A stretch of 64,000 nt of DNA, from positions 5,417,648 to 5,481,647 of the forward strand of contig OZ253541.1 in NCBI GenBank assembly GCA_965262365.1, read 5' to 3'. The notes below the pieces were generated by a model that saw only the letters and a list, made by a program, of their open reading frames with translations, searched no databases and had not been told where the DNA came from. This document shows, one piece after another, positions 1-14,523 of this stretch (within the stretch, counting starts at the first letter, position 1; each line of letters begins with the position of its first letter). This DNA is from Candidatus Rariloculaceae bacterium. Lineage in GTDB: Bacteria; Pseudomonadota; Gammaproteobacteria; Steroidobacterales; Rariloculaceae. Both the position numbers and the translations under genes were made by a program.

Positions 1-410
1 GGCACTGCTCGCTCACGATCGGCACTACGAACGAAATTATGTAAGCCAGCCTGCCTGAAGCAAGGCCGGTTGGTTTGGCTTCAACTACCAAGACAAGGAG
101 GAGACGCCAGAAAGGTTGCACCAGGTACGACACGAGGTGATGGGCAACAGGTAAGACCGCGATCCGCCAAGCTTGAATCCAATCTCGGGCATCAAGCCCT
201 TTTGGATGGCCCTCTTTATGGGTGCCAGCACTAATCTGAAAGTGTAGTCATTCTGCCAGTCTGAAATTGTTGTTTTCTTCGGGGGCGTCTTCTTCGAAAA
301 GCTTCCACTAAGCGGTTCTTCGTTTTCTTCGTTTTCTTCGGCCCATTGACTTTCGGCATCCCGCTCCGGTGCCGATGGCCGCATCATCGGCGGTCGGAGG
401 AAGGCGATCG

Positions 411-558
411 ATGACGAAACGAAGACGACGCAAGTGTCTGAACTGTGGGCGGTTGTTTCGCCCGGACCCGCGCAATCGGCGGCACCAGCGTTACTGCTCG
501 GCGCCCGATTGCCGCAAGGCGAGCAAGGCGGTGAGCCAGGCGCGCTGGCTGTCCAAAC
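411..558 (+). pseudogene. N-terminal fragment of a Cys-rich (CxxC...YC..C) transposon-associated hypothetical protein, cut by an IS66 end
   Basis: ATG at 411 after GGAGGAAGG; MTKRRRRKCLNCGRLFRPDPRNRRHQRYCSAPDCRKASK...; the IS66 terminus GTAAGCG starts at 559. Confidence 0.55.
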
Positions 559-598
559 GTAAGCGTTCCGTCAAGGGGGGATCAGCGTTGATCGTACC
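559..598 (+). mobile_element. IS66 left-end stub (40 bp)
   Basis: GTAAGCGTTCCGTCAAGGGGGGATCAGCGTTGATCGTACC closely matches the left end at 7470-7509 and starts with the canonical IS66 GTAA. Confidence 0.8.
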
Positions 599-697
599 GT
601 TCCGTCAAGCGGGGATAGATGACGGCCATTTTTGGCCGATCCAGTGAGCGCGGTGCAAGCGAGGGAGGGCTGATAACCTGATCGGTGTTCGGATAAC

Positions 698-1363
698 CTA
701 CCGGTTGAGGGTTCGTTGCCAGTCTTTGCGCAGGGGGCGAAGCCAGATGTCCTTTTTCGGCTTGTCGTACTGTTTGTAGCGGGCGTTGTCGATCACCAGC
801 GGCAGGTTCTTCTGGCGCAGCGCCGGCGTCCAGCCGATGAAGCGGTCGCGCGGGGCGAGTGTCCGTGCCGCGGTGGAGAAGCCGAGCAGGGCCAGCAGGC
901 GGCCGTGGCGGTCATGGACGGTGTAGCGCATCTGCGCGCCGACCAGGGTCTTGTAGCCGAGGTAGTGGTAGCGGGCGATGAACGCGTTCCACTGCTTGCT
1001 CTGGGGAGTGGCCCCGAGCACGGTTCGCAGGCGGATCGGACGCGCCTCATTGAGGGTGACGGGCGGCGGTTCCAGCGGCGCGTCGGTTTCGGGCCCGAAC
1101 GTGATTGGCACGGCCGGGTTGCGTCCCCACTTCGGCGGCGGCAGGGCGATGCGCCCGTCACGGTGCATGGCCAGCATGGCGACCCGCGCCATCATGTCCT
1201 TGAGCCCGCCGTCGGGCTTGTACCAGCCGATGCGCCGGCAGAACTCTTTCGACAGGGCGAAGCGGTTCAGGGCGGGGAGCCCGGCGATGAGCGCGCGCAG
1301 CAGCGCCATTTCCTCCACCGTGAAGTCGCGTCCGTAATAGCGGCACTCCATTTCGGCGGTCAT
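698..1363 (-). pseudogene. DUF4338 protein with an in-frame 72-aa internal deletion
   Basis: Translation equals 9871..10752 except ...IDNAR|YKQYDK... Confidence 0.85.
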
Positions 1364-1620
1364 CCCGGGGCCATCAGGGTCCGTCGGCGCGCCTGGCTCA
1401 TCGACCACGGCAGCCACTCGGACAGGTCCGGTGGCGCCCGCCCGCCATTGGCCGCGCACGCGTTAAGCCACTCGTGCAGCCAAGCGCGCACATTGAGGCC
1501 GTTCAACGCGAGCGTGCCCACGACCGAGTACATCATCGCGGTGAACCGCGCGCCGGCCTCGCTGTCGGAGCCGAACGACAGGCGCCGTCCGATAACCGCG
1601 CTTCGAAGCGTGCGCTCGGC
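1360..1620 (-). pseudogene. IS66 transposase C-terminal fragment
   Basis: AERTLRSAVIGRRLSFGSDSEAG...TLMAPG, same as the end of 7625..9874. Confidence 0.85.
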
Positions 1621-1810
1621 CACGTTATCCCGGAACCCGGATTATTCCGGAATCGATGTCTCGGGAGCCGACTGTCCCTGCAATGTCGGGTGCTAAATGC
1701 CTGAATAATCACAAACTGTCTTCTCCTGCTGGCCTGCTTGCCAGCGTACGCAGCGGGACACCGCCCGTCTGGCGCCGGTTGATCGCGAACCTTCACACGA
1801 TGACCCGGTC

Positions 1811-2470
1811 ATGGAAACGGTGGAGCGGTATGAGCGCTTCCTCATCGACGAACGCGGCGCAAGCCCGAAAACGATACTGGCCTATCTCTCGACCGTCCGT
1901 GACTTTCTTGGCGACTGTTTCGAGTCCAGGTGCCAGGATCTTGGATCTCTGGATTGCAGTCACATCAACGGGTTCATACGTCAGTCCTGCCGGACCCAAT
2001 GCTCGGCGACGACACGGGTCCATGTTGCCGCCCTGCGCAGTTTCGCGCGGTATCTGTATCGATCCGGGATCGTCACTGCCGATATTGCCGACGGAATGTG
2101 CCGGGTCAGCACCTGGCGCCTGGCGAACTTGCCGACGGCGTTGGCACCGGACCAAGTCGAAGCGATGCTCGCCAGCTGCAACCGCGAGACGGCCACGGGC
2201 CGGCGCGATTACAGCGTTCTCATGTTGCTGGCGCTCCTTGGGTTGCGCGCTTGCGAGGTCGTCCGTCTGACGCTGGACGATATCGACTGGTCCAACGGCA
2301 AGATTACCGTGGCCGGAAAAGGCGGTCGGCACGACGTTTTGCCGCTGCCCCACCAGGTCGGCGAAGCGCTGGCGGCGTATCTGCAGGGCGGTCGACCGAT
2401 TTGTGCGACACGACGTGTGTTTGTGCGGCGTTATGCCCCTGTAAACGGCTTTCAGTCATCGGCCGCGGTT
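1811..2470 (+). pseudogene. Truncated tyrosine recombinase (RIT/XerD-like)
   Basis: Integrase SAM-like N-part, ...GRRDYSVLMLLALLGLRACEVVRLTLDDIDW...GKGGRHDVLPL; breaks off before the HxxR and Tyr boxes. Confidence 0.75.
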
Positions 2471-3009
2471 GCCCTAAGTGCCAGAGCCTGTCGCAAACTC
2501 GATGGGTCGAGCGCCAGTGCGCCGATCTGCTGGACATCGGCTACTGGCACGTGGTCTTCACCTTGCCCCATCGGCTCAGGTCCTGGCCCTACACTCACAA
2601 GACCGCCATCGGCAACCATCGGCTGATCGACTTCGACGGCGAACACGTGCGGTTCCGATGGCGCGACTACGCCGACGGCAACCGGCGAAAGGTCATGCGG
2701 CTGGAGGTCGACGAGTTCATTCGCCGCTTCCTCCTGCATGTGCTGCCGCGAGGCTTCACCCGCCTGCGCCATTACGGGTTGCTCGCCAATCGCAACCGAT
2801 CCCGGAAGCTTGCCCAATGCCGTGCGTTGCTTGGACAACCGGAGGCCGAACCGCCGAAGGAGGAAACCGCGCAGGAACTGATGTTGCGTGTGACCGGAAT
2901 CGACATTGCCGTGTGCCGGTACTGCGGACGCGGCCAGCTGCGACACCTTGCCATCCTCAAACCGGGTACCGACGCAGTGGTGCCGGCGCCGACGGCGAGA
3001 CCGCCATGA
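2466..3009 (+). pseudogene. IS91-like (Y2) transposase relic with internal deletion
   Basis: RGCPKCQ zinc motif, YWHVVFTLPH joined directly to YTHKTAIGNHRL...FIRRFLLHVLPRGFTRLRHYGLLANR. Confidence 0.8.
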
Positions 3010-3291: not shown

Positions 3292-6200
3292 TTATCTCAA
3301 CGCTGACTCGAGTCGTGGAAGCGTGTTCGGGTGTGCGGGTAGCATCCATTGGATGTCACGGGAGACGCCGGTGAACTCAATTGGCGTGGCTTCCGCGCGC
3401 TGATCTGTCAGTTCTCCGTCCTTGTACCAACCCAGGAGATAGCGCGTGATTTGGTCATCTGACCACCAGAGAGATATAGCATCAGCCGTCCCAACGGCGC
3501 CGGCAGTATATGTGATGGTGAGGTACAGTGGGTCGGTCCATTGTCCTTTCGATCCGGTAGCAAATGGCCACCGATCCGAGTCATCTTCCCACGAAACATC
3601 TTCCAAATAATCTCCCCAATAAAGGTAGAGAAACTCCCCAACGATCGGAGGATTCGCTTCCATGTCCGGCCAGAGCATTTGTATCGTTACCTGGTCAAAG
3701 GCGGGAATCTGCGACGGCAGCCATTCTTCGAATTCATCGTAATAGTCATCGACGCCGATGCCGAATGCTGCCTCGAATGCCTGCTGCCAGGTTGAATTCT
3801 CACCGAGTAACTTCCAGAACTCCACATAAGCGTTTTCCGACGCTTGCTCGGCCAGGAATTTTGCTGCAACGAAACTCAAGGCATAGTAGTAGATTTCACC
3901 GAACGTACATCTGGCATCCGAATACTCTGCCGTTCTGGCCAAATCACCGTAATTGAGTTCGTCGTTGACTTGGGACCAACCCAAGTCTTTGTAGGGGGAG
4001 TACCTGTCACCCACGAAGGGGCGTCGACCCGGCCTGGTTGGGGTGTACTTGTAATCGGCATAGGAAGCGAGCCCTTCCACCAGCCACTGGGGCGCTACGG
4101 CCTGGGTGTCAGTGTGCCATCCAATCTCGCCGTTCTGTAATTGCGAAAATCCCGAAGCAAGTTGTCCCTGGAGAACATGGAAGTACTCGTGAGCGATATG
4201 GTGTTTGAGTGAAGTGAACGAATAAGCCCCCAATCCGTACATGAGCGTAATGACGGCACTGCCCTGGGCGGAAGATGTAACCCACGCATCCGTATATTTA
4301 GCGTCGGGGTGATAGAAGTACCTGAGATCTGTTCCGACTACATCCCCGTATACCGGTGCCAGCGTTTCGTAATTCGTACCGACCAGAACGGTGAAGTTCG
4401 TTGCCGTAACACCAAACTTATCGGCGAAGTACCTTCGGCTGTACTCCAGCTCTTCGCGCAACATGGTCTGCTCGATATCCGGTACATCTCCTGCAAACAT
4501 CCATGTCACAGTGGAATCGATATACTCAAACGGCTTCTCCACGGAGACGCGCACCGCGTAGGAACAGTTGTTTGCGGTATCGGACTCCCCAGACACTGGG
4601 TCGACACAAGCTCCGAAGTAGTAGGTTCCAGAGGTTGACGGGATTGTCAGGCTGATCGACTCATGGCTGGTACCTCCGGGGGAGAGTGCGCTCAACGCGA
4701 TTGTGCCGACCTCCGTGTCCGTCGTTGAAATCGTGAAGTCCGTCGAGCGATAGTAGCGTAGCGTAGTGGCGGCGGACTGACCGGTGCCCTGGTTGCGGAC
4801 GGTCGCATAGTAAGTGATCGAGGCCCCCGGTTCAGGATTGTTGTCGCTAACCGATGTGGACACGACCACCAGGTCCGGCCCGGAAACCTGACCGCAGGTG
4901 ACGTCGTCATCCAGCGGGCATGCGTCATCCGTGTCGGAAACGCCGTCATTGTCATCGTCCGTGTCGGCGTTGTTGCCGATCCCGTCGCCATCCGTGTCGA
5001 CGGACTCGCCCGGATCCTGCGGGAAGGCGTCGTTCGCGTTGGACACGCCGTCGTTGTCGTCGTCCCCGTCGACCATCCCGCCGCCACCTGTCGTGGGCGG
5101 TGTCGCGGGCGCCTCGGTGCTGCCGGCCACCCGATCCATCCGCCACACCCCTTCGCCTTGGTGCGAGGCCTCAAAATCGTAGACCCGCCCGTTGATCGTC
5201 TGGTTGGTGATCCGGATCCTGATACCGGCCAGGAACGTCAGGAACGAACCCCGGCCGCGTTCATTGACGCTGAACGCGTCCGTCGTGCCGGGGTAGGTGC
5301 AGCTCTGCCCAATGCTCACCGACAGACTCACGTAGCATTCGCCCAACGAACCTGTCTCGGTCGTGCCGGTGTTCACCGTGATGGTGAAGCTGAGCGTGTC
5401 GGTGTCGTCATCCTCATCCGTCACGGTGTACGTCATGGCATGGGTGCCCGCCGTGGTCGGTGTGCCGGTGAGTTGGCGCGCGGTGGCGTTGAACGTCAAC
5501 CCGGCCACGTTGGGCGAGAGACTGTAGGCCAGGGTGCCGTTCCCGCCGCTCGCCTCCGGCAGCGTCAATGCATCGATCGCGGTGCCAACGGTGTAGGTCT
5601 GGTCACCCGGGCCGCTTACACTGCGGAAACTCGGGAATCGATCCACTTCGCCCGAACCCGCCGCACGCCCGGTCACGGTGCCTTGGGTCACTGCCCCATT
5701 CACAATGCTGCATCCCGCTGGCGATGTGCAGGTGTATCTCGTGCCATCGCTCAGCTCGAAGTACTCACCGTCATTCAACTCGATCGTCGTGCCGGCGCCG
5801 GTGGCTGTGACACTTCCACCGGACGCCACTGCTGGAAAGAAAAATCCGGATGTGGGCACGCCGGGGAGCATGTCATCAACCCCATACGTGGTGTCGGTGA
5901 CCTCACCGCCGTCATCCTCGTCATCCTCAATGGACCAGCTCCCGCCCAGCCAGGTCCCGTCCGCCGGGTAATCGCTGCCGGTGCAGTGAGAGGCGAACCA
6001 GCCCGCCGTGTGCGTGGAAAAGTACAGGTTCGCCGCGCATTCGTCGCCGTCGTCGTAGGTGAGCGTCAATCGGCCCGCGTCTGGGCCGATGCCTTCGTAG
6101 CCGTAGCTGCCGGTGTAGGTCGTTGAGGTCCCATCGACCTCGCCGGTCTCGCTGAACTCATCGCCCGTCATGGCATTGAGCGTGAAGCGGTCGCTACCGC

Positions 6201-7119
6201 TAAGGTAGACAACGTCGATCCCGACGAAGCGTTCGTTGAACGCCTCAAGATCCGCCGGCGCCGCTCCCGGCACCGCAGTCGTTGAAAGGTTGTTCCAGTA
6301 CCCGGCGGTGGCCGCGACGATATTCACCACCTGAAGCGGCTGGTCCGACGACACCGTCAGCCGCCACTTGCCGGTGCCGGCGCCCAACTGGCCCGTGATG
6401 GCGGTGGCACCCGCCTCCAGTTGCTGCGCGGTCAGCGTCTGAGCACCGCCCGCCGCAAGCGTCAGCGTCACGTCTCCCCCGGTGGCCGCGGCACCGCCGT
6501 CGTCGCGCCCCGCAATCGTCACCGAAGCCGCCGCATCGCCCGGATTGATCAGCCGCAGCCGGCTCACCTGGGTGGCGTCGCTGGCGGGGTTGAAGATCGG
6601 CACTTCATAGGTGTAACCGTCCGACCCGTCAGTGGCCGCCGCGCCGCGCACCGTATCGTGCATCGCGCTCAGTGTGCCGTCGGCAGCGCGAACGAAGGCC
6701 AGGGGCACGATGGAAAGATCCGTCTCGATCTGAAGGCGCGCATCGCCCACGTCCGTGCCGATACCCCCGGTCAATCCCAGGGTCGCGTTACCGGAGGCAA
6801 GGTCGGTGGCCGTGAACTGCACCGCCGCCGAGGCGTTCAGCGTGAAGGTGGCGGGACCGGATCGTGTGCCGGCGTCATCGATGGCGTAGATCTCCACCGT
6901 GCCGGACTCGTCCGTGCCGTTGAGAATCCGCAGCACCCCCTGCGGCTCGCTCGATGTGCCCGCCGGCGCCAACAGCGGCACCGTGTAGTGCTCGGCTTGC
7001 GCCGCCGAAGCAAAAAACAGCAGACCCGCGAGGACAAGGCGTCGGAAAATCCTGCTCTTAATTTTGATAAGCCTTCCCGGCCTGCGGCGAGTCCATGCAG
7101 CGGTCAATTTGCGGAACAT
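3292..7119 (-). CDS. Large secreted modular protein: duplicated N-terminal beta domains, putative Ig (He_PIG-like), thrombospondin type-3-like Ca repeats, CARDB, C-terminal HExxH zinc metallopeptidase-like domain
   Basis: Signal-like RRLVLAGLLFFASAAQA; DGDDDNDGVSNANDAFPQDP/DTDGDGIGNNADTDDDNDG; PDLVVVSTSVSDNNPEPG...VRNQG; HHIAHEYFHVLQ...WLVEGLASY. Start uncertain (7158 or 7119). Confidence 0.8.
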   Translation of the reverse strand: MFRKLTAAWTRRRPGRLIKIKSRIFRRLVLAGLLFFASAAQAEHYTVPLLAPAGTSSEPQGVLRILNGTDESGTVEIYAIDDAGTRSGPATFTLNASAAVQFTATDLASGNATLGLTGGIGTDVGDARLQIETDLSIVPLAFVRAADGTLSAMHDTVRGAAATDGSDGYTYEVPIFNPASDATQVSRLRLINPGDAAASVTIAGRDDGGAAATGGDVTLTLAAGGAQTLTAQQLEAGATAITGQLGAGTGKWRLTVSSDQPLQVVNIVAATAGYWNNLSTTAVPGAAPADLEAFNERFVGIDVVYLSGSDRFTLNAMTGDEFSETGEVDGTSTTYTGSYGYEGIGPDAGRLTLTYDDGDECAANLYFSTHTAGWFASHCTGSDYPADGTWLGGSWSIEDDEDDGGEVTDTTYGVDDMLPGVPTSGFFFPAVASGGSVTATGAGTTIELNDGEYFELSDGTRYTCTSPAGCSIVNGAVTQGTVTGRAAGSGEVDRFPSFRSVSGPGDQTYTVGTAIDALTLPEASGGNGTLAYSLSPNVAGLTFNATARQLTGTPTTAGTHAMTYTVTDEDDDTDTLSFTITVNTGTTETGSLGECYVSLSVSIGQSCTYPGTTDAFSVNERGRGSFLTFLAGIRIRITNQTINGRVYDFEASHQGEGVWRMDRVAGSTEAPATPPTTGGGGMVDGDDDNDGVSNANDAFPQDPGESVDTDGDGIGNNADTDDDNDGVSDTDDACPLDDDVTCGQVSGPDLVVVSTSVSDNNPEPGASITYYATVRNQGTGQSAATTLRYYRSTDFTISTTDTEVGTIALSALSPGGTSHESISLTIPSTSGTYYFGACVDPVSGESDTANNCSYAVRVSVEKPFEYIDSTVTWMFAGDVPDIEQTMLREELEYSRRYFADKFGVTATNFTVLVGTNYETLAPVYGDVVGTDLRYFYHPDAKYTDAWVTSSAQGSAVITLMYGLGAYSFTSLKHHIAHEYFHVLQGQLASGFSQLQNGEIGWHTDTQAVAPQWLVEGLASYADYKYTPTRPGRRPFVGDRYSPYKDLGWSQVNDELNYGDLARTAEYSDARCTFGEIYYYALSFVAAKFLAEQASENAYVEFWKLLGENSTWQQAFEAAFGIGVDDYYDEFEEWLPSQIPAFDQVTIQMLWPDMEANPPIVGEFLYLYWGDYLEDVSWEDDSDRWPFATGSKGQWTDPLYLTITYTAGAVGTADAISLWWSDDQITRYLLGWYKDGELTDQRAEATPIEFTGVSRDIQWMLPAHPNTLPRLESALR

Positions 7120-7624
7120 GCTCACCAACGACGAATACATCGTGTAGGGATTGCGCACGATATTGACGAACCGGGCCGCCGGTCAAAAGCTCCAACCATG
7201 CGGCACTCACCGTGGCGATGTGCGCGACACGACCGCGTCCCTCGCCGTCGAACCCATTCCATCGCCTCCATCCTCGGCTCGCGACGAACGTCCGGGCGTG
7301 TTCCGGAACCGAAGATCCCCGTCCACCGGCTTTCCCGGTGCGCGCGCGCGCGAGCGATGAAAAAATACACACGAAAGCCATAGTAGAAGAATGGCGCGCC
7401 GATGTATCTCCCCAACATTGGGGGAGAGGAGGCGTTTTTTTTTCGAACGGTTTCAGTCGGTTACGGAGAGGAACCGTTCCGTCAAGCGGGGATCGGCGTT
7501 GATCGTACCCTATTTTTCCGTAATCGAGCTGGCTGGCGGCTTCGAGTATTTTGTGACCGGTGCCGGTGAGAAAATCGCTTTGGGGCGCTGGTAACACGAT
7601 CGGCATTGCGGTATCGTTGCGCGC

Positions 7625-9874
7625 ATGGCGATTCGCGCAGAGGATGTCCGCACAGAACTGACGCTGATTGAGCGTGCCGAGGGGACCGGGCCGCAGCCTA
7701 AGGCGGTGCCGGCGGGTGAGCGGCGCGACTACCGTTTGCTGTATGAGCGGGAGGTGGCGCGGGCGGGCGAAGCCGAAGCCCGGGCGAAAGCGGCCGAAGC
7801 GCGAGCCGAAGAGTTTCGCTGTGCGGAGGTCAGGACCCGTTTCGAATCCGCTTCCTGGAAGCATCGGTACGAGCTTTCCCGGAGGAAGCTGACGAGAGTC
7901 GTCGAGCAGACGAAGGCAATCCGGGGCACGGCGAACAACGCGCAGTCGTTGCAGGGATCGCAGCACCGGAAAGACACGATCAAGTCGCTGCGCACGGAAC
8001 GCGGCGGGCTGCGCAAGGAGGTGACCCGGCTGAACCGGGACCTCACTCGGCTGGAGACGCGTCTGGCCCGCCAGACGGAGAAGTCGGAGACCCACAAGAA
8101 AACCATCCTGCGGCTTTACAAAGAGGACGTTCGGCTTCGTAGGGAGCTGAGGGGATTACGCGATCAAGAGGATGTAGTTGGGTCGCTGTGCGACGAGGTG
8201 TACTGGTTGCGTTATGCCCTGAAGAGGTCGGAGGCCGGGAAGGAGGCGTTGAAAGCCCGGCTGGTCAAGCTTCGCGCCACCGGGGCGACGCTTTCGAAGT
8301 TGCCGTCCGACGAGGTCGCACAGCTGCGCAAGGCGCTGAGGCGGTCGCGGCGCCAGAAGACGACGATCAAGTCACTGTACAAGGAGAACGCCCGGCTGCG
8401 CAGGGCGGCGCAGGTGTCGCAAAGCCGCAAGGAGGCCTTGAGCGCGGAGTTAGCGGAGGTTCGTGCGAGTCGGGCCGTATTGTCGAAGTGGCTGTACGGG
8501 CGCAGGAGCGAGCAACAGGACAAGTTCCGCTCGGCGCGTCGGCGCGGCCAGCAGCCTGGCGCTCCCGGCCATGGCCGCACCCCGCGACCGGGGCTTGAGG
8601 AACGGATCGAAATCCACCAACCGCCGGCGGAAGCATGCGTGTGTGGCCGCTGCGGTACCCCGTATGTGGCCAACGGCGAGCGTTCCACCACGATCGTCGA
8701 AATCGACGTGAAGGCGCATACACGGCGCATCGTCCGTCCCCGCTGGCGCCGGCGGTGCGACTGTGCCGATTCCCCGCCGGATGTTATCGCGGCAACGCCG
8801 GACCGGGTGTTCGCCCGCGCGGCCTACGGCACCAGCGTGTGGACGCATGTTCTGTTCGAGCGCTACCTGTGCAATCGGCCGCCGAACGGGGTGGCGATGT
8901 CGTTGTCGCATCAGGGACTGCCCATCTCCGCCGGTACGCTGGCCCGCGGGCTGGCGCGGCTCGCGCCGCTGTTCCAGCGGCTGGCGCTGGCGATGCTGGA
9001 GCACCAGAACGAGGCGGCTGTGCGCCACGGCGACGAGACCGGCTGGCGTATCCAGGCGCTGCGCCAGGCGGGACGTTCCGGGCGCGCCTGGCTGTGGGTC
9101 TCGGTGACCGAGCATGCCGTGTACTTCCACATCGATCCCTCGCGCAGCGCCGAGGCGGCGCTGAAGGTGTTCGGCGGTGCCGTGGGCGTGCAGGTCCTGG
9201 TGGTCGACCGCTACTCCACTTACAAGAAGCTGGCCCGCGTGCTCGAGGGCCGGGTGATCCTGGCGTGGTGCTGGGCGCACCAACGCCGCGACTATATCGA
9301 CTGCGCCGCCGGGCAGGTGGAACTGAGCGAATGGTGTCAGGCATGGTTGGGGCGCATCGCCGCAATCTACCGGCTGAACAAGACGCGGCTGTCGCATTAC
9401 GAGTCCAGTGCCGAGAGACAGAACGAGGCGTTCGACACCGCGCAGCGGGCGCTGGAAACCGAGGTCAAGGGTCTGTTCGCCACCGTCGAACGGGAACTGG
9501 CGGGGCTTGACGACACCGCACCCGAGGCCGGGCCGCTGCGCTCGCTGCTGAAGCATCGCGATGGCCTGAGCGTGTTCCTCGAACGGCCCGAGGTGCCCAT
9601 GGACAATAATTTTGCCGAGCGCACGCTTCGAAGCGCGGTTATCGGACGGCGCCTGTCGTTCGGCTCCGACAGCGAGGCCGGCGCGCGGTTCACCGCGATG
9701 ATGTACTCGGTCGTGGGCACGCTCGCGTTGAACGGCCTCAATGTGCGCGCTTGGCTGCACGAGTGGCTTAACGCGTGCGCGGCCAATGGCGGGCGGGCGC
9801 CACCGGACCTGTCCGAGTGGCTGCCGTGGTCGATGAGCCAGGCGCGCCGACGGACCCTGATGGCCCCGGGATGA
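7625..9874 (+). CDS. IS66-family transposase (TnpC-like) with a long N-terminal coiled coil
   Basis: LYGRRSEQ, RRRGQQPGAPGHGR, CxCxxC zinc finger, RHGDETGW, LVVDRYSTY, WCWAHQRR, DNNFAERTLR. Confidence 0.9.
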   Translation: MAIRAEDVRTELTLIERAEGTGPQPKAVPAGERRDYRLLYEREVARAGEAEARAKAAEARAEEFRCAEVRTRFESASWKHRYELSRRKLTRVVEQTKAIRGTANNAQSLQGSQHRKDTIKSLRTERGGLRKEVTRLNRDLTRLETRLARQTEKSETHKKTILRLYKEDVRLRRELRGLRDQEDVVGSLCDEVYWLRYALKRSEAGKEALKARLVKLRATGATLSKLPSDEVAQLRKALRRSRRQKTTIKSLYKENARLRRAAQVSQSRKEALSAELAEVRASRAVLSKWLYGRRSEQQDKFRSARRRGQQPGAPGHGRTPRPGLEERIEIHQPPAEACVCGRCGTPYVANGERSTTIVEIDVKAHTRRIVRPRWRRRCDCADSPPDVIAATPDRVFARAAYGTSVWTHVLFERYLCNRPPNGVAMSLSHQGLPISAGTLARGLARLAPLFQRLALAMLEHQNEAAVRHGDETGWRIQALRQAGRSGRAWLWVSVTEHAVYFHIDPSRSAEAALKVFGGAVGVQVLVVDRYSTYKKLARVLEGRVILAWCWAHQRRDYIDCAAGQVELSEWCQAWLGRIAAIYRLNKTRLSHYESSAERQNEAFDTAQRALETEVKGLFATVERELAGLDDTAPEAGPLRSLLKHRDGLSVFLERPEVPMDNNFAERTLRSAVIGRRLSFGSDSEAGARFTAMMYSVVGTLALNGLNVRAWLHEWLNACAANGGRAPPDLSEWLPWSMSQARRRTLMAPG

Positions 9875-10752
9875 CCGCCGAAATGGAGTGCCGCTATTAC
9901 GGACGCGACTTCACGGTGGAGGAAATGGCGCTGCTGCGCGCGCTCATCGCCGGGCTCCCCGCCCTGAACCGCTTCGCCCTGTCGAAAGAGTTCTGCCGGC
10001 GCATCGGCTGGTACAAGCCCGACGGCGGGCTCAAGGACATGATGGCGCGGGTCGCCATGCTGGCCATGCACCGTGACGGGCGCATCGCCCTGCCGCCGCC
10101 GAAGTGGGGACGCAACCCGGCCGTGCCAATCACGTTCGGGCCCGAAACCGACGCGCCGCTGGAACCGCCGCCCGTCACCCTCAATGAGGCGCGTCCGATC
10201 CGCCTGCGAACCGTGCTCGGGGCCACTCCCCAGAGCAAGCAGTGGAACGCGTTCATCGCCCGCTACCACTACCTCGGCTACAAGACCCTGGTCGGCGCGC
10301 AGATGCGCTACACCGTCCATGACCGCCACGGTCGCCTGCTGGCCCTGCTCGGCTTCTCCACCGCGGCACGGACACTCGCCCCGCGCGACCGCTTCATCGG
10401 CTGGACGCCGGCGCTGCGCCAGAAGAACCTGCCGCTGGTGATCGACAACGCCCGCTTCCTGATCCTGCCCTGGATCCGCATCCCCAACCTGGCCTCGCAC
10501 ATCCTGTCCGTCGTCTGCCGACAACTGCCCGGGCAGTGGACCGAGCGCTACAACACCTCGCCGGTGTTGATCGAAACCTTCGTGGAGACCCCGCGCTTCA
10601 CAGGCGCCACCTACAAAGCCTCGGGGTGGGTCAACGTCGGCACCACCCAAGGACGCGGGCGCTACGACCGCTACAAACAGTACGACAAGCCGAAAAAGGA
10701 CATCTGGCTTCGCCCCCTGCGCAAAGACTGGCAACGAACCCTCAACCGGTAG
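9871..10752 (+). CDS. DUF4338 (Druantia DruA-like) domain protein
   Basis: ATGA overlap with the transposase stop; FIARYHYLGY, NARFLILPW, NLASHIL, ETFVETPRFTGATYKASGW, GTTQGRGRYD. Confidence 0.8.
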   Translation: MTAEMECRYYGRDFTVEEMALLRALIAGLPALNRFALSKEFCRRIGWYKPDGGLKDMMARVAMLAMHRDGRIALPPPKWGRNPAVPITFGPETDAPLEPPPVTLNEARPIRLRTVLGATPQSKQWNAFIARYHYLGYKTLVGAQMRYTVHDRHGRLLALLGFSTAARTLAPRDRFIGWTPALRQKNLPLVIDNARFLILPWIRIPNLASHILSVVCRQLPGQWTERYNTSPVLIETFVETPRFTGATYKASGWVNVGTTQGRGRYDRYKQYDKPKKDIWLRPLRKDWQRTLNR

Positions 10753-10855
10753 GTCATCCGAACACCGATCAGGTTATCAGCCCTCCCTCGCTTGCACCGC
10801 GCTCACTGGATCGGCAAAAATCTCCGTCATCTATCCCCGCTTGACGGAACGGTTA

Positions 10856-11669
10856 TTGCGCCAGGGAAAGCCCTGGAGAGGAGAATGCTATGAATTGAAA
10901 CTGAAACCTCTCGTAGCGATCCAGCGGGTTCGACTCCCGCCCGGCAAAGGCGCAGCCCGCCAGCCGGAAGCAAGTCTTGCGTGGCGCGCGGCAACGCCCG
11001 TCGTGAAGCGTAGACAGCAGGTGATGAAGCGGCGGAGGAAGCCTCGAAATCGGAATCGATGACGCCTTCATTGTTAATCGTGTGGGGGCAGCACCGGAAG
11101 CGCCGCTATTGGTGAGGCGCAACGGGTCGTCCGGGGTCGTGGACCGGCGCAGAGTCACGGAATGGATCGCCTGGGAACCTGGGAGGTCCTGCTCACGCCC
11201 ACGGGCAACGACGCTGGAAGGGGATTGCCAGCATAAATCCAGACCCCGGCCCGTCGCCGGGCCTGCACGGCGGCGGGACCGCCCGATGCGGACACGAATT
11301 CCGACAGGCACCCGTGGAACCGGCTGGCGAAAACAATAAGCCGAAGGACATGCGAGGGCAGGAAGTCGTAGCGCCTTGATAGTACCTGTGAAGGCGGGGA
11401 ACCGTGGCCCTCGGGACCCGCTGGAGGGAAGCGGGGCGTCACTTGTACAGAGCCACTGATGGGAAACGCTGGAGGAAACGCTGAGTTCCACAAACACGTA
11501 CACGAAACAGCAGTGGATAGCCGAACAGGCGAGGGAGCGGTCTTCCTCAACCTGCGGATCAAGGACGAAACTCCTTGAGCGAACCTGTCAGGTGAGGAAC
11601 CGAGTGCGTCAATCGCGCACGCTCGGGTCTGCGGGGGGAGGGGCTCGGTAACGACCCCTCCTACCCGGC
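10856..11669 (+). ncRNA. ORF-less group II intron (IIB-like), copy 1
   Basis: 5' TTGCG; EBS1 loop TAATCGT at 11075-11081; domain V GAACCGAGTGCGTCAATCGCGCACGCTCGGGTC at 11597-11629; domain VI with GTAA loop and bulged A, ending CCTACCCGGC; repeated at 59081-59894. Confidence 0.9.
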
Positions 11670-11785
11670 CGCTCAAAGAGCCGACATGAGAGCGCTGTAA
11701 TTGGAATAAATCTGTATGCGGTTTGCTTACGAAGCAAAGTGGCCAAGAAGACTTAGCGACTAACCACGCCAATCTTTTTCCCATA

Positions 11786-11965: not shown

Positions 11966-11991
11966 TCAGGCCGAAGGCAACGCGTCGACGG
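11966..11991 (-). pseudogene. Detached original 3' end of the aldo/keto reductase gene
   Basis: Joining across the GACGG TSD gives ...MAETV-DALPSA-TGA (stop 11966-11968). Confidence 0.8.
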
Positions 11992-12185
11992 TGTTGTTGG
12001 TCAGACTAGACCGACACGGATTTGTCGGATTATCCGGTCACGGTTGAGGCCGGATTGGTCACATTGTTTTGCTTTTGCCGACCATCGCAGGCCGGTCGCC
12101 GCGACGGCGGTTGGGTGATGGAGGGGCACGACCCGGTCCGATCCGAAGGATCGGCCGGCGTTGGCGGGTCCGTTTGGGCGCGGAT

Positions 12186-12395
12186 TCAGAACGGGCGGGG
12201 TTCGCCGAACAGGTGCAGCTGGCGTTCGTGGCAGGACTCGGCGGGGCACGGGGGCGGCCGGATGGATTCTGCGTGGCGCCTGATCTGGCCGTAGTAGCGG
12301 CCTTCGAAGTCATAGGCGATGCGTTGCAGGCACTCGGCCATGTGCGCGGCGGCCTCGTCGCTGATCTGCTCGGGCCGGGGATCGGGATCGATCAT
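12186..12395 (-). CDS. Small transposon-associated hypothetical protein (69 aa)
   Basis: ATG overlaps the ATPase stop; MIDPDPRPEQISDEAAAHMAECLQRIAYDFEGRYYGQIRRH. Confidence 0.6.
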   Translation of the reverse strand: MIDPDPRPEQISDEAAAHMAECLQRIAYDFEGRYYGQIRRHAESIRPPPCPAESCHERQLHLFGEPRPF

Positions 12396-13192
12396 GGCCG
12401 CAGATCCTCGACGGCGCGGGCCAGGTGTTCGGCGTCCACGGTACGCGCTTGCTCGACCGCCGCGGCCGAGAGCGCGTAGTGGGCGATGCGGTTGATGAGC
12501 CGCGGCAGTCCGCGGGCGGCCTGGTACAGCGCCTCGATGGCGGGGGGATCGAACAGGGGCATTTCGCACCCGGCCAGGCGCAGCCGGTGGGCGAGGTAGG
12601 GGTCCAGTTCCTCGCGCTCCAGCCCGCGCAGGTGGTGTTGAACGATGAGTCGCTGTTGCATCGATTCGTGCACGGCCATGCTCAGGCGCCGGCGCAGTTC
12701 GGTCAGTCCGATGAGCACCAGGCACAGCCTGGGGGCGGAGTCCATGTCGAAGTTGGTCAGCAGCCTGAGGTCCTCGATCACGTCGGCTCTGAGGTGGTGA
12801 GCCTCGTCGATGACGAGCACCGGTTGTTGCTTGGCCTCCCCGACCAGGCGGGTGATCTCGGTCTGGATGGCGCGGTAGGCCGCGGCGCGGGCGTGCTCGG
12901 TAGGCAGGCCCAGTTCCCAGCCGATGCTCTTGTACATGTCCATCACGTTGCCGGTGGACAGCGCCACGTAGCACACCCGGAACAGCCCCGGGTGCAACGC
13001 ACCGGTGACGTGGCGGCACACGCTGGTCTTGCCGCTGCCGGACTCCCCGGTCAGCAGCCCGATACCGCGCAGATCGATGAGGTGCTTGAGCCGCGCCTCG
13101 GCCTCGCGATGGGAGCCGCAGCGGAACAGCTCGTCGGTGTGCGCGGGGGTTTCGAACGGCAGGCGGGTCAGGGCGAAGTGGCGCAGGTACAT
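12392..13192 (-). CDS. ExeA/TnsC-like AAA+ ATPase
   Basis: MYLRHFALTRLPF, Walker A GESGSGKT, Walker B VLVIDEAH, GLPRLIN. Confidence 0.9.
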   Translation of the reverse strand: MYLRHFALTRLPFETPAHTDELFRCGSHREAEARLKHLIDLRGIGLLTGESGSGKTSVCRHVTGALHPGLFRVCYVALSTGNVMDMYKSIGWELGLPTEHARAAAYRAIQTEITRLVGEAKQQPVLVIDEAHHLRADVIEDLRLLTNFDMDSAPRLCLVLIGLTELRRRLSMAVHESMQQRLIVQHHLRGLEREELDPYLAHRLRLAGCEMPLFDPPAIEALYQAARGLPRLINRIAHYALSAAAVEQARTVDAEHLARAVEDLRP

Positions 13193-14523
13193 CAGTCTTC
13201 CTCCTTCAGTCGGCGGATGCTCAGCGGCGAGCGCGGCGGTTGCGGCTCCCCGGGCTCGATGCGCCCGCAGCGGCGCTCGCGTTTCACGGCGGTGTTGGCG
13301 TAGGCGTCCAGCGGCGTGGCCAGGCCCGCGGGACGTCCCTCGTGCACCAGTTGCAGCGCCCGGGTGGGCGGGGCGGCCGGATCGTATCGCACGGTGACGG
13401 TTTGCCCGATGAGGATCGCGTCGGCCTCGTAGAGGCGCCCGTGCAGACTCAGGGTGCGGTCCTTGAGCACGCGGCGTTTGGTCTCGAACAGGAACAGCTC
13501 GTCCAGATCCAGCCCGGCGGCGTCCGGGTAGCGCACCTCGGCGGCGGTCCCGGCCCAGCGGTCCAGCGGGGTCTGACCGTCCAGTCCGCGGTGCGGGGAC
13601 TGATGGTATTCGCCCTCCACCCAGCCGGCCAGCGCACGGTTCAACGCCTCGATCCCGTCGATCGAGCCCACATCCAGATGGCGCAGCCAGCCGGCGCGCA
13701 GGGTGCGGAACCAGCGTTCGATCTTGCCCTTGCCGGCCGGTTGATACGGGCGGGCGTGGATGAGCGCAATGCCGAGCTTCGCGCACACCAGCGCGAGGTG
13801 GCGGGAGCGGTAATTCGCCCCGTTGTCCACGTAGAGGCGCTCGGTGAGTCCGCGGCGCAGCAGCGCGTGCTTGAACACCGGCAGGAACGCGGCGGTGTTC
13901 TCGGCGAAGGCGAACGCGGCGTGGGGAATGACGCGGGTGGCGTCGTCGATGAAGGCGATGAGGAAGGTCTTGCGCCGGCGGCGACCGTCAGGGACCTTCG
14001 GCCCGTGCATTACATCGCTCATCCAGAGTTGGCCCGCCCGGCGATAGTTGAAGCGGCGCCGGTCCGTGGCGGGTCCCTGCGCGGCGGCCCGGCCCGTCAG
14101 CCCCTCGCGGCGCAGCAACCGCTGCACGGTGGACGCCGAGGGCATCGCCGCCTCGCTCACCAGCCCGTGCTCGGCGGCGTGGGCGATGACCGCGCGCACG
14201 GAGTAGCCGGGGCGCCGGGTCTTGATCGCCACCAGCGCCTCGGCGACCTCCGCGGGCATGCGCCGGGGCCGGCCCAGGTCCGAGCGACGTTTCGGGTACA
14301 GCGCCTCGAAGCCACCGTAGCGGTACGTCACCAGCCACTTGCGTATCGTCTCCGCGGCCACCCGGGTGCGGTGCGTGCCGGGGATCGCGTAGGTCCCGGC
14401 GGCCTTTTCTTTCAGCTTCTCACCGATGCCGCGGGCGCCGCGGGGCAGGTGCGCCAAGTCCGCGATCAGCCCGTAGCGGAACAGCGCCACGGCCTCTCGC
14501 AGCTTCTCGTCGTGCTCGGTCAT
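13192..14523 (-). CDS. DDE transposase/integrase (rve core, Mu-like C-terminus)
   Basis: WMSDVMHG, FIDDATR, YVDNGANY, KGKIERWF, YHQSPHRGL. Confidence 0.9.
   Translation of the reverse strand: MTEHDEKLREAVALFRYGLIADLAHLPRGARGIGEKLKEKAAGTYAIPGTHRTRVAAETIRKWLVTYRYGGFEALYPKRRSDLGRPRRMPAEVAEALVAIKTRRPGYSVRAVIAHAAEHGLVSEAAMPSASTVQRLLRREGLTGRAAAQGPATDRRRFNYRRAGQLWMSDVMHGPKVPDGRRRRKTFLIAFIDDATRVIPHAAFAFAENTAAFLPVFKHALLRRGLTERLYVDNGANYRSRHLALVCAKLGIALIHARPYQPAGKGKIERWFRTLRAGWLRHLDVGSIDGIEALNRALAGWVEGEYHQSPHRGLDGQTPLDRWAGTAAEVRYPDAAGLDLDELFLFETKRRVLKDRTLSLHGRLYEADAILIGQTVTVRYDPAAPPTRALQLVHEGRPAGLATPLDAYANTAVKRERRCGRIEPGEPQPPRSPLSIRRLKEED

What the first reader, a model, noticed from the sequence alone, without database searches (positions are those of the whole stretch)
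7625..10752. IS66-type element carrying a translationally coupled DUF4338 (DruA-like) gene instead of tnpA/tnpB
Seen: between the TIRs are only the transposase and a 293-aa DUF4338 gene (ATGA overlap). The same pair recurs in the copy at 594-1620, so the gene travels with the IS. Established: classical IS66 has tnpA/tnpB accessory genes, and DUF4338 is the DruA component of Druantia. Inference: the stand-alone protein may be a transposition cofactor, a DNA-modifying enzyme (the HYLG motif recalls Mom/GNAT-like proteins) or mobile anti-phage cargo.
Basis: partly seen in the sequence, partly recalled or inferred. Interest (0 to 1): 0.65.

Follow-up and report, generated by a model that had tools for sequence, protein, structure and literature searches.

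The report
IS66 jumping gene with Mom-like partner
This is a real insertion sequence of the IS66 family whose transposase gene is welded to a second, even better conserved gene for an acetyltransferase-fold protein resembling phage Mu's DNA-modifying enzyme Mom; the same protein is found next to or fused with several unrelated transposases, so it is probably an undescribed helper of transposition, not phage-defence cargo.

Summary
Window 7470-10855 (plus one base, 11670, beyond an inserted group II intron) is an IS66-family element of about 3.39 kb. It has 24-bp GTAACCG-type inverted repeats and only two genes. One is a 749-aa IS66 DDE transposase with a roughly 300-aa coiled-coil arm. The other is a 293-aa DUF4338 protein whose ATG overlaps the transposase stop (ATGA).

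The "copy" at 594-1628 is a dead fragment: a transposase tail plus a DUF4338 gene with a 216-bp in-frame deletion. The genome nevertheless holds a second full copy with an 8-bp target duplication, and 18 near-identical copies of a 74%-related element with the same gene pair.

In 80 of 80 related loci from several phyla the pair is adjacent and overlapping. DUF4338 is more conserved than the transposase.

DUF4338 is also fused in frame to IS66, Tn5-like IS4, ISAs1 and IS630 transposases, three such fusion genes being in this genome.

A confident model is GNAT-fold, and phage Mu Mom is among the best matches. Five of seven Mom active-site residues align with conserved positions.

Best reading: a transposase-bound accessory enzyme. 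It is not a Druantia member. I found no publication describing this.

The parts
7470..7493 (+). Left terminal inverted repeat of the element ('ISa'): GGAACCGTTCCGTCAAGCGGGGAT. Position 2 is G where the other three ISa ends have T.
   Evidence: Inverted repeat I6. Sequence read. Consensus GTAACCG... taken from the second genomic copy.
7625..9874 (+). IS66-family DDE transposase, 749 aa. Residues 1-300 form a repetitive coiled-coil arm, a CxC/CxxC zinc-finger region lies at about 337-385, and the DDE domain spans 400-688.
   Evidence: PF03050 5.6e-51. NF033517 271 bits against a cut-off of 180. Translation.
9871..9874 (+). ATGA overlap: the start codon of the DUF4338 gene overlaps the stop codon of the transposase gene. 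The DUF4338 frame is -1 relative to the transposase frame.
   Evidence: Sequence. The same ATGA/GTGA overlap is present in 80 of 80 related loci.
9871..10752 (+). DUF4338 (Pfam 'DruA') protein, 293 aa. It has a small N-terminal alpha/beta domain (residues 1-75) and a GNAT-fold domain (about 105-293) with invariant H133, Y134, S209, E235 and Y248.
   Evidence: PF14236 3.5e-38. Model with pLDDT 86.4. Foldseek finds the GNAT fold, including Mom 8bv8. hhalign against a Mom profile.
10833..10855 (+). Right terminal inverted repeat, first 23 of 24 nt (ATCCCCGCTTGACGGAACGGTTA). The final C is at 11670, after the intron.
10856..11669 (+). ORF-less group II intron, 814 nt, inserted between the last two bases of the right repeat. 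It is an intruder, not part of the IS.
   Evidence: Rfam RF02005 at 2.7e-36 and RF00029. Eleven identical genomic copies all lie after ACG(G/A)TTA.
594..1628 (-). Decayed inverted fragment of ISa. It holds the right repeat (with 1 nt missing), a DUF4338 gene with a 216-bp in-frame deletion (residues 196-267, the catalytic core), and the last 269 nt of the transposase gene.
   Evidence: Inverted repeats I1-I3. BLAST and translation.
558..598 (+). A 41-nt left-end fragment of a related element (GTAAGCGTTCCGTCAAGGGGGGAT..., 92% identical to 7472-7509), abutting the fragment above head-to-head.
   Evidence: Direct repeat D2. Sequence.

Best explanation
The element is an insertion sequence of the IS66 family. 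The standard helper genes tnpA and tnpB are absent. Instead the transposase is made together with a DUF4338 protein from one transcript, by termination-reinitiation at the ATGA overlap.

Shown here:
- IS66-type transposase, GTAA(C/G)CG inverted repeats and 8-bp target duplications.
- Recent bursts of transposition of the two-gene unit.
- Obligate linkage of the two genes.
- Stronger purifying selection on DUF4338 than on the transposase.
- In-frame fusions of DUF4338 to transposases of several families.
- A GNAT fold with a Mom-like constellation of conserved residues.

Inferred: DUF4338 binds the transposase and acts within the transposition complex. The small N-terminal domain would contact DNA or the transposase. 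The Mom-like GNAT domain would transfer an acyl or aminoacyl group onto DNA at the element's ends or target, or onto the transposase or a DNA-bound host protein. The donor could be acyl-CoA or, as in Mom, a charged tRNA. This would license or limit transposition.

The stated confidence applies to 'dedicated transposition accessory subunit'. The specific chemistry (Mom-type modification of DNA) is much less certain, about 0.2-0.25.
For: Linkage:
- 80 of 80 loci in genome contigs carry an IS66 transposase directly upstream with an ATGA/GTGA overlap. They come from Alpha- and Gammaproteobacteria, Longimicrobiales, Bryobacterales and other MAGs.
- A second clade at 44-53% identity also sits behind IS66 transposases.

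Activity:
- The relative ISb has 18 copies at 99.8% identity, perfect 25-bp repeats and 8-bp duplications, and every one of the 18 carries an open DUF4338 reading frame (two of the copies lack the left end).
- The second ISa copy has the 8-bp duplication GAAATTAC.

Selection:
- dN/dS between ISa and ISb is 0.33 for DUF4338 and 0.53 for the transposase.
- Over 38 distinct elements, DUF4338 averages 80% identity and the transposase catalytic part 62%. DUF4338 is the more conserved in 98% of pairs. Pairwise identities co-vary (Spearman 0.65).

Fusions:
- 10 of 10 long family representatives are DUF4338 fused to a transposase: IS66 (C-terminal), Tn5-like IS4, IS630/DDE_3 or DDE_Tnp_1.
- One more fusion, to ISAs1, is on a Thiodictyon plasmid.
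- This genome holds two 752-aa DUF4338::DDE_Tnp_1 genes and one 613-aa DUF4338::ISAs1 gene, with the HY, NLAS and YRA(A/S)NW motifs intact.

Phylum sample:
- 24 of 401 genomes carry the family.
- Transposase domains dominate among the neighbouring ORFs.

Fold and active site:
- The model has pLDDT 86.4.
- Foldseek against the PDB returns GNATs. Mom 8bv8_B ranks second, with the highest query TM-score (0.45) and 17% identity, tied for highest in the top ten.
- hhalign of the family profile against a Mom profile gives E = 0.005 over 148 columns. H133/Y134 align with Mom H58/Y59, S209 with catalytic S124, E/D239 with D149, and Y248 with Y159. The Mom residue roles come from PMC13219725.
- A relative (P0320) scores 25.7 bits on Pfam Mom, whose cut-off is 27.1.
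Against: - There is no functional, expression or interaction data of any kind.
- The Mom similarity is weak in sequence terms (hhalign probability 7%). SpeG-type acetyltransferases score equally well in Foldseek.
- Mom's essential R111 and its HTH-like insertion (residues 175-209) have no counterpart here.
- The 80-locus survey is biased towards close relatives of this protein.
- Members of the family also occur in Druantia type I, and fused to DndF-like defence proteins (PMC10853773). The domain is therefore not exclusive to transposons.
- Identical copies from a recent burst cannot show that the gene is needed for movement.
Confidence: 0.6

Rival explanations
1. DUF4338 is passenger cargo that benefits the host or the element indirectly. 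It would be either a stand-alone anti-phage or Druantia-like function, or a Mom-like anti-restriction modification that protects DNA carrying the IS after horizontal transfer.
For: - Pfam names the family after Druantia DruA.
- There is a weak PADLOC DruA hit.
- The Mom-like active site fits a DNA-protecting modification.
- The family is patchy and horizontally spread.
Against: - No druB-E genes or any other defence gene lie inside the repeats.
- The PADLOC match is only E = 8e-5 over 52 residues.
- There is no homologue in 50,697 phage records.
- Cargo is not expected to be recurrently fused in frame to four or more transposase families at either terminus.
- Cargo is not expected to be more conserved than the transposase in 98% of comparisons.
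Confidence: 0.15
2. DUF4338 is a non-catalytic architectural or regulatory subunit. It would be a DNA- or transposase-binding module built on a dead GNAT scaffold that positions or restrains the transposase, with no group transfer.
For: - The canonical acyl-CoA pyrophosphate loop (Q/R-x-x-G-x-G/A) is absent. The sequence there reads IPNLAS.
- Mom's R111 is not conserved.
- The fusions fit a binding module as well as an enzyme.
Against: - The residues equivalent to Mom's catalytic H58/Y59 and S124 are invariant and the Y159 equivalent is nearly so, across three alignments down to 34% identity and in the fusion proteins. That conservation is unusual for a dead enzyme.
- Mom itself lacks the canonical CoA loop, reading PRNSES at that position, and is active with Gly-tRNA (PMC13219725).
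Confidence: 0.15
3. DUF4338 is a GNAT-type toxin, like TacT or AtaT which acetylate charged tRNA. It would stabilise the element by addiction.
For: It has a GNAT fold with possible tRNA-linked chemistry, by analogy with Mom and the GNAT toxins (PMC13219725 discusses GNAT toxins).
Against: - There is no antitoxin gene in the element. It holds only two genes.
- The genome tolerates more than 20 intact copies.
- Fusion to transposases is not a toxin-antitoxin architecture.
Confidence: 0.04

Closest known systems
IS66 family, canonical three-gene elements (IS66, IS679, ISRm14: tnpA-tnpB-tnpC)
   Same: - IS66-type DDE transposase, above NCBIfam's equivalog cut-off.
- Inverted repeats starting GTAAGCG/GTAACCG.
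- 8-bp target duplications.
- N-terminal coiled coil plus zinc-finger region before the DDE domain.
   Different: - No tnpA or tnpB.
- The transposase is only 27-28% identical to the canonical TnpC copies in the same genome.
- The coiled-coil arm is expanded to 300-450 aa.
- A DUF4338 gene follows the transposase with a stop/start overlap.
IS66 family, ISBst12-like group (transposase only; recalled from ISfinder, not checked here)
   Same: IS66-type transposase without the tnpA/tnpB helpers.
   Different: - Those elements are described as single-gene.
- Here a second gene is present in every one of the 80 related loci examined, is more conserved than the transposase, and is translationally coupled to it.
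Phage Mu Mom (PDB 8bv8; Pfam PF25680), a GNAT that uses Gly-tRNA(Gly) to modify N6 of adenine in dsDNA
   Same: - GNAT fold.
- H-Y motif, (P)xNxxS with the catalytic Ser, acidic residue after beta-5, and Y-x-A-x-N-(F/W) motif all align.
- The canonical CoA loop is missing in both.
   Different: - Below the Pfam Mom threshold.
- R111 and the essential HTH-like insertion are absent.
- It has an extra N-terminal domain.
- It is encoded by insertion sequences, not phages (no phage hit).
- Its activity is unknown.
DruA of type I Druantia (DUF4338 in druABCDE operons)
   Same: Same Pfam family (PF14236).
   Different: - No druB-E genes here.
- The match to PADLOC's DruA model is only a 52-residue fragment.
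- The context here is a two-gene transposon.

Membership tests
IS66 family of insertion sequences | Transposase matches the IS66 DDE transposase models above the curated thresholds | tested here: met
   PF03050 scores 174 bits (cut-off 23.1). NF033517 equivalog scores 271 bits (cut-off 180).
IS66 family of insertion sequences | Terminal inverted repeats of about 20-30 bp beginning GTAAGCG or similar | tested here: met
   ISa has the 24-bp repeat GTAACCGTTCCGTCAAGCGGGGAT. ISb has the 25-bp repeat GTAAGCGTTCGGTCACGCGGCGATG.
IS66 family of insertion sequences | 8-bp target-site duplication | tested here: met
   Met for ISb copies (AAGCGAAC, TTCCGGCG, GACCGAAG and others) and for the second ISa copy (GAAATTAC). 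Not met for the window copy itself (TACGGAGA against GCTCAAAG).
IS66 family, canonical group | Accessory genes tnpA and tnpB upstream of the transposase | tested here: not met
   Only 131 bp lie between the left repeat and the transposase start. All 14 PF05717 (TnpB_IS66) hits in the genome are elsewhere, in other elements.
Druantia type I (DruA) | DruA-type protein encoded in an operon with druB, druC, druD and the DruE helicase | tested here: not met
   The element holds two genes only. The neighbours are a CARDB/He_PIG surface protein, an IS91 fragment, a group II intron and another IS. PADLOC DruA gives E = 8e-5 over residues 142-193 only.
DUF4338 / Pfam PF14236 | Match above Pfam's gathering score | tested here: met
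   131.9 bits against a cut-off of 27.
GNAT superfamily | GNAT fold in a confident structural model | tested here: met
   Model pLDDT is 86.4. Foldseek finds 119 PDB matches at E <= 1e-3, all GNATs, with TM-scores normalised to the target of 0.55-0.71. PMC10853773 also calls DUF4338 a GNAT domain.
GNAT superfamily | Acyl-CoA pyrophosphate-binding loop Q/R-x-x-G-x-G/A at the start of helix alpha-3 | tested here: not met
   The sequence there is I-P-N-L-A-S (residues 204-209), conserved in the family. Mom has P-R-N-S-E-S at the aligned position.
Mom family (Pfam PF25680) | Match above Pfam's gathering score | tested here: not met
   The window protein gives no hit at E <= 10. The relative P0320 scores 25.7 bits against a cut-off of 27.1. 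Profile-profile comparison gives E = 0.005.
Mom family (Pfam PF25680) | Active-site residues H58, Y59, R111, S124, D149, R151 and Y159 (PMC13219725) | tested here: inconclusive
   H58, Y59, S124, D149 (as E/D) and Y159 align with invariant or nearly invariant DUF4338 residues. R151 is offset by one position from R242. R111 falls in a gap.
Mom family (Pfam PF25680) | HTH-like insertion (residues about 175-209) that is essential for Mom activity | tested here: not met
   This stretch is gapped in the profile alignment. DUF4338 has an N-terminal domain instead.
Mom family (Pfam PF25680) | Aminoacyl-tRNA-dependent modification of adenine in dsDNA | not testable with these tools
   Needs biochemistry, or nucleoside mass spectrometry and SMRT kinetics.

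The most novel reading that the evidence does not exclude
DUF4338 proteins are Mom-type transferases, using a charged tRNA or an unusual acyl donor, that have been recruited repeatedly as a portable catalytic subunit of DDE transposases (IS66, IS4/Tn5-like, ISAs1, IS630). They would chemically mark DNA at transposon ends or target sites, or mark the transposase itself, to control transposition. Druantia's DruA would then be the same DNA-marking module borrowed for defence.
Probability: 0.2. Interest if true: 0.85.

Novelty: new variant of a known kind. Interest (0 to 1): 0.62.

Why it matters
IS66 is a large IS family whose transposition mechanism and helper proteins are poorly understood.

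A helper gene that is more conserved than the transposase, and that is also fused to transposases of at least four unrelated DDE families, points to a general, unstudied layer of transposition control. It may involve covalent modification of DNA or protein by a relative of Mom, whose tRNA-dependent chemistry was only recently worked out.

It would also give the first concrete, testable idea for DruA, the uncharacterised first gene of type I Druantia.

In practice, thousands of genes currently auto-annotated as "Druantia protein DruA" are probably transposon genes, which inflates counts of defence systems.

In the full-text library searched I found no paper linking DUF4338/DruA to transposases. 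ISfinder itself could not be queried.

Tried and rejected
- First structure prediction. With a shallow alignment (28 sequences, all at least 72% identical) it gave an unusable model (pLDDT 55). It was redone with 136 sequences.
- Sequence-profile search of the PDB. It found nothing meaningful (best E = 0.49).
- Target duplication and empty site for the window copy. The flanks differ, and a paralogous upstream region (genome 4923391) diverges exactly at the left end without continuing into the right flank. This copy has probably been rearranged. I did not resolve how.
- Right flank as part of the IS. I first suspected that the repeated right flank and a GGAGAGGA match belonged to the IS. The flank turned out to be a separate group II intron.
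- Promoter and terminator consensus scan of 7400-10900. It was uninformative (0 promoters, terminators at chance level).
- Programmed -1 frameshift. The junction C_CCG_GGA_TGA in ISa could in principle yield a transposase-DUF4338 fusion. Many related elements have non-slippery junctions (GCGTGA, GCATGA), so I do not propose it as the general mechanism.
- Toxin-antitoxin reading. Rejected because there is no partner gene.
Full report
ANATOMY

ORF 7625-9874 (+) encodes 749 aa. It matches Pfam DDE_Tnp_IS66 (5.6e-51, residues 400-688) and NCBIfam's IS66 transposase equivalog (271 bits, cut-off 180, residues 310-717). Residues 1-300 are a repetitive, charged coiled-coil arm. A Cys-rich zinc-finger-like stretch precedes the DDE domain.

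ORF 9871-10752 (+) encodes 293 aa matching PF14236 (DruA/DUF4338, 3.5e-38). Its ATG overlaps the transposase TGA as ATGA.

The two genes lie between perfect inverted repeats at 7472-7493 and 10833-10854. Comparison with a second genomic copy extends these to 24 nt, GTAACCGTTCCGTCAAGCGGGGAT, the IS66-type terminus.

The right repeat is interrupted one base before its end by an 814-nt ORF-less group II intron at 10856-11669 (Rfam RF02005 at 2.7e-36, plus a domain V/VI hit). The last base of the IS is at 11670. Without the intron the element ('ISa') is about 3,387 bp.

The window copy has no matching target duplication, and position 2 of its left repeat is G, not T. It may no longer be mobile.

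THE SECOND 'COPY' IN THE WINDOW

Positions 594-1628 are an inverted fragment corresponding to 9606-10853. It has the right repeat, only 269 nt of the transposase gene, and a DUF4338 gene with a 216-bp in-frame deletion between 9-10-bp imperfect repeats. The deletion removes residues 196-267, the catalytic core.

The fragment abuts a 41-nt left-end fragment of a related element at 558-598.

THE GENOME GIVES MUCH STRONGER SUPPORT

The window lies in a single-contig genome of 6.03 Mb.

- A second ISa copy at 253627-257199 is 95% identical over the 3' 2.6 kb (query 8287-10855, covering the transposase catalytic part and the DUF4338 gene) and 87% over the 5' 1 kb (7472-8434). Both genes are open. 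Once the intron inserted in its left repeat is discounted, it shows the 8-bp target duplication GAAATTAC.
- A related element, ISb, is 3,563 bp and 74% identical at the nucleotide level. It is present in 18 copies at about 99.8% identity, two of them lacking the left end.
- ISb has perfect 25-bp repeats (GTAAGCGTTCGGTCACGCGGCGATG) and 8-bp duplications at independent sites.
- ISb has the same organisation: an 852-aa transposase and a 293-aa DUF4338 protein joined by ATGA.
- A third variant, ISc, is also present.

The two-gene unit therefore transposes as such.

The genome also has 14 canonical IS66 tnpB genes. Their TnpC proteins are only 27-28% identical to the ISa transposase.

BEYOND THIS GENOME

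The protein has thousands of relatives.

- The best 120 are almost all 290-312 aa and at least 72% identical.
- In the library clustered at 50% identity, 8,157 representatives match at E <= 1e-3.
- In 80 of 80 loci retrieved from species-representative genomes, an IS66 transposase ends within the start codon of the DUF4338 gene (ATGA or GTGA). These are MAGs labelled Alpha- and Gammaproteobacteria, Longimicrobiales, Bryobacterales, Candidatus Poriferihabitaceae and others.
- A second clade at 44-53% identity also follows IS66 transposases of about 545 aa, separated by 2-5 bp.
- Between ISa and ISb, dN/dS is 0.33 for DUF4338. It is 0.53 for the transposase overall, 0.43 for its catalytic part and 0.71 for its arm.
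- Among 38 distinct elements, DUF4338 averages 80% pairwise identity against 62% for the transposase catalytic region.
- DUF4338 is the more conserved of the two in 98% of those pairs, and the two sets of identities co-vary (Spearman 0.65).

DUF4338 is thus the best-conserved gene of the element.

PARTNERSHIP WITH OTHER TRANSPOSASES

This was tested here independently of earlier notes.

- All ten long representatives I scanned are in-frame fusions.
  - Three are IS66 transposase followed by DUF4338.
  - Four are DUF4338 followed by a Tn5-like IS4 transposase.
  - One is DUF4338 followed by an IS630-type DDE_3 transposase with HTH domains.
  - Two are DUF4338 followed by DDE_Tnp_1.
- A Thiodictyon plasmid carries a DUF4338::ISAs1 fusion. 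A second Thiodictyon plasmid carries a DUF4338 gene upstream of a Tn5-like transposase, with an IS91 nested between them.
- In the window's own genome, 25 places match PF14236. Besides the IS66-type elements there are two copies of a 752-aa DUF4338::DDE_Tnp_1 protein and one 613-aa DUF4338::ISAs1 protein. All retain the conserved motifs.
- In an even sample of 401 genomes of the phylum, 24 carry the family, which is a patchy distribution. Among ORFs within about 1.5 kb of the hits, the commonest families after DruA are DDE_Tnp_1 (7), DDE_Tnp_1_assoc (6), IS66 (3), Tn5 DNA-binding (3) and UPF0236 (2). TniQ and SNF2 each occur once.

Recurrent fusion at either terminus is the classic sign of physical cooperation. 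It is hard to reconcile with mere cargo.

WHAT THE PROTEIN IS

With a 136-sequence alignment, AlphaFold2 gives a confident model (pLDDT 86.4). It shows a small N-terminal alpha/beta domain (two short strands and three helices, residues 1-70), a linker, and an alpha/beta domain.

Foldseek against the PDB returns only GNAT acyltransferases. SpeG ranks first. The phage Mu Mom structure 8bv8_B ranks second, with the highest query TM-score (0.45) and 17% identity, tied for highest in the top ten. Aravind's group also lists DUF4338 as a GNAT domain (PMC10853773).

A profile of diverse DUF4338 proteins aligns with a profile of 32 Mom homologues over 148 columns (hhalign E = 0.005, probability only 7%). 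Against the Mom residues that PMC13219725 shows or proposes to be catalytic, the alignment gives:

| Mom residue(s) | DUF4338 position | Status |
|---|---|---|
| N121...S124 | N206...S209 | aligned, conserved |
| D149 | E/D239 | aligned |
| Y159-Q-A-S-N-F | Y248-(K/R)-A-(S/A)-(G/N)-W | aligned, conserved |
| R151 | R242 | offset by one position |
| R111 | none | falls in a gap |
| HTH-like insertion (essential) | none | absent |

H133, S209 and E235 are invariant in all three alignments, down to 34% identity. One relative scores 25.7 bits on Pfam's Mom model, whose cut-off is 27.1.

Both families lack the canonical CoA-binding loop. The protein is therefore a GNAT specifically related to Mom, but not a member of the Mom family. 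Its donor and acceptor are unknown.

WHAT IT IS NOT

It is not a Druantia system. No druB-E genes are present, and the surroundings are a CARDB/He_PIG surface-protein gene, an IS91 fragment, the intron and another IS. PADLOC's DruA model matches only residues 142-193 at 8e-5. tblastn finds no relative in 50,697 phage genomes, which argues against a phage-type anti-restriction role.

MECHANISM PROPOSED

Shown: a mobile two-gene IS66-type unit with obligate, co-evolving, translationally coupled partners.

Inferred:
- The DUF4338 protein is made in cis with the transposase.
- It joins the transposase on the element's ends.
- It uses its Mom-like GNAT domain to transfer a group onto DNA or protein, and so controls transposition.

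I put 0.6 on 'dedicated transposition accessory subunit' and about 0.2 on Mom-type nucleic-acid modification specifically. The rivals are cargo (0.15), a non-catalytic scaffold (0.15) and a toxin (0.04).

NOVELTY

Full-text searches found no paper that links DUF4338 or DruA with IS66 or with transposases. ISfinder could not be queried.

Earlier notes of this scan report the same association in at least 36 other genomes. I treated them as leads and re-derived the key points here: linkage, fusions and Mom likeness.

The element is a new variant of a known kind, an IS66-family IS with an undescribed accessory gene. Wider interest attaches to the protein family.

LIMITS

There is no complex prediction and no biochemistry. 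The 80-locus survey favours close relatives.

Noticed in passing
window 10856-11669; also genome C1 at 257201, 508717, 1769606, 3555704, 3988240, 4412110, 4929387, 5231733, 5254399, 5476728: An 814-nt ORF-less group II intron is present in 11 identical copies, plus about 7 variants at 89-94% identity. Every copy lies after ACG(G/A)TTA and before C. It sits inside the terminal repeat of both ISa copies (right end here, left end in the other), and a 90-94%-identical variant sits in the right repeat of two ISb copies. It also sits at the same site in three paralogues of the CARDB/He_PIG gene.
   Followed up: partly
genome C1:4077826-4090820, 4255886-4261739, 5510709-5516544: Eight of the 18 ISb copies lie in head-to-tail tandem arrays: one of four copies and two of two. 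The copies are separated only by 7-9 bp that repeat the target duplication (CCTTGAA / CCCTTGAAA alternating). This may reflect dimer junctions or repeated insertion at the same site.
   Followed up: partly
genome C1:2320379-2320843 (+), 5102465-5102929 (-), 4409998-4410432 (-): In the same genome, DUF4338 is fused in frame to non-IS66 transposases. There are two copies of a 752-aa DUF4338::DDE_Tnp_1 protein and one 613-aa protein that joins the GNAT part alone to an ISAs1 transposase.
   Followed up: yes
window 7625-8530 and ISb transposase residues 1-440: The N-terminal arm of these IS66 transposases is built of repeated units of about 35-40 aa (K/R-T-I-K-S-L-x-K-E-x-x-R-L-R-R-E-like). Across related elements the upstream open reading frame taken as the transposase (stop to stop, not trimmed to a start codon) ranges from 439 to 893 aa, and 643-893 aa in most. 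The arm evolves fastest (dN/dS 0.71).
   Followed up: partly
window 9865-9874: The junction C_CCG_GGA_TGA fits the X_XXY_YYZ pattern of a -1 slippery site just before the stop, and the DUF4338 frame is -1. A frameshift would yield a transposase-DUF4338 fusion like the natural fused genes. Many relatives lack the pattern, so this is only a possibility.
   Followed up: no
window 558-617: Head-to-head junction of a 41-nt IS left-end fragment (canonical GTAAGCG terminus, 92% identical to ISa) with the inverted right end of the ISa fragment. They are joined through a few shared bases. Its origin (nested insertion plus deletion, or an aberrant transposition product) is unresolved.
   Followed up: partly
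window 3292-7158 (-) and about 10 paralogues (for example genome C1:4923391-4931314, 5230992-5233660, 5248610-5256325): A 1,288-aa CARDB/He_PIG repeat protein belongs to a family of paralogous genes at 72-93% identity clustered in this part of the chromosome. Three of the paralogues are split by the intron.
   Followed up: no
window 11990-14523 and beyond: Another multi-copy element has at least 9 copies at more than 99% identity and 4 at 91%. It encodes an integrase-core DDE transposase (443 aa) and an ExeA-like AAA ATPase. An IS91-type Y2 transposase fragment lies at 1930-3009.
   Followed up: no
window 369-647 (+): A 92-aa ORF with a CxxC...YCSxxCR zinc-ribbon-like motif runs into the left-end fragment at 558. 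It has no Pfam match.
   Followed up: no
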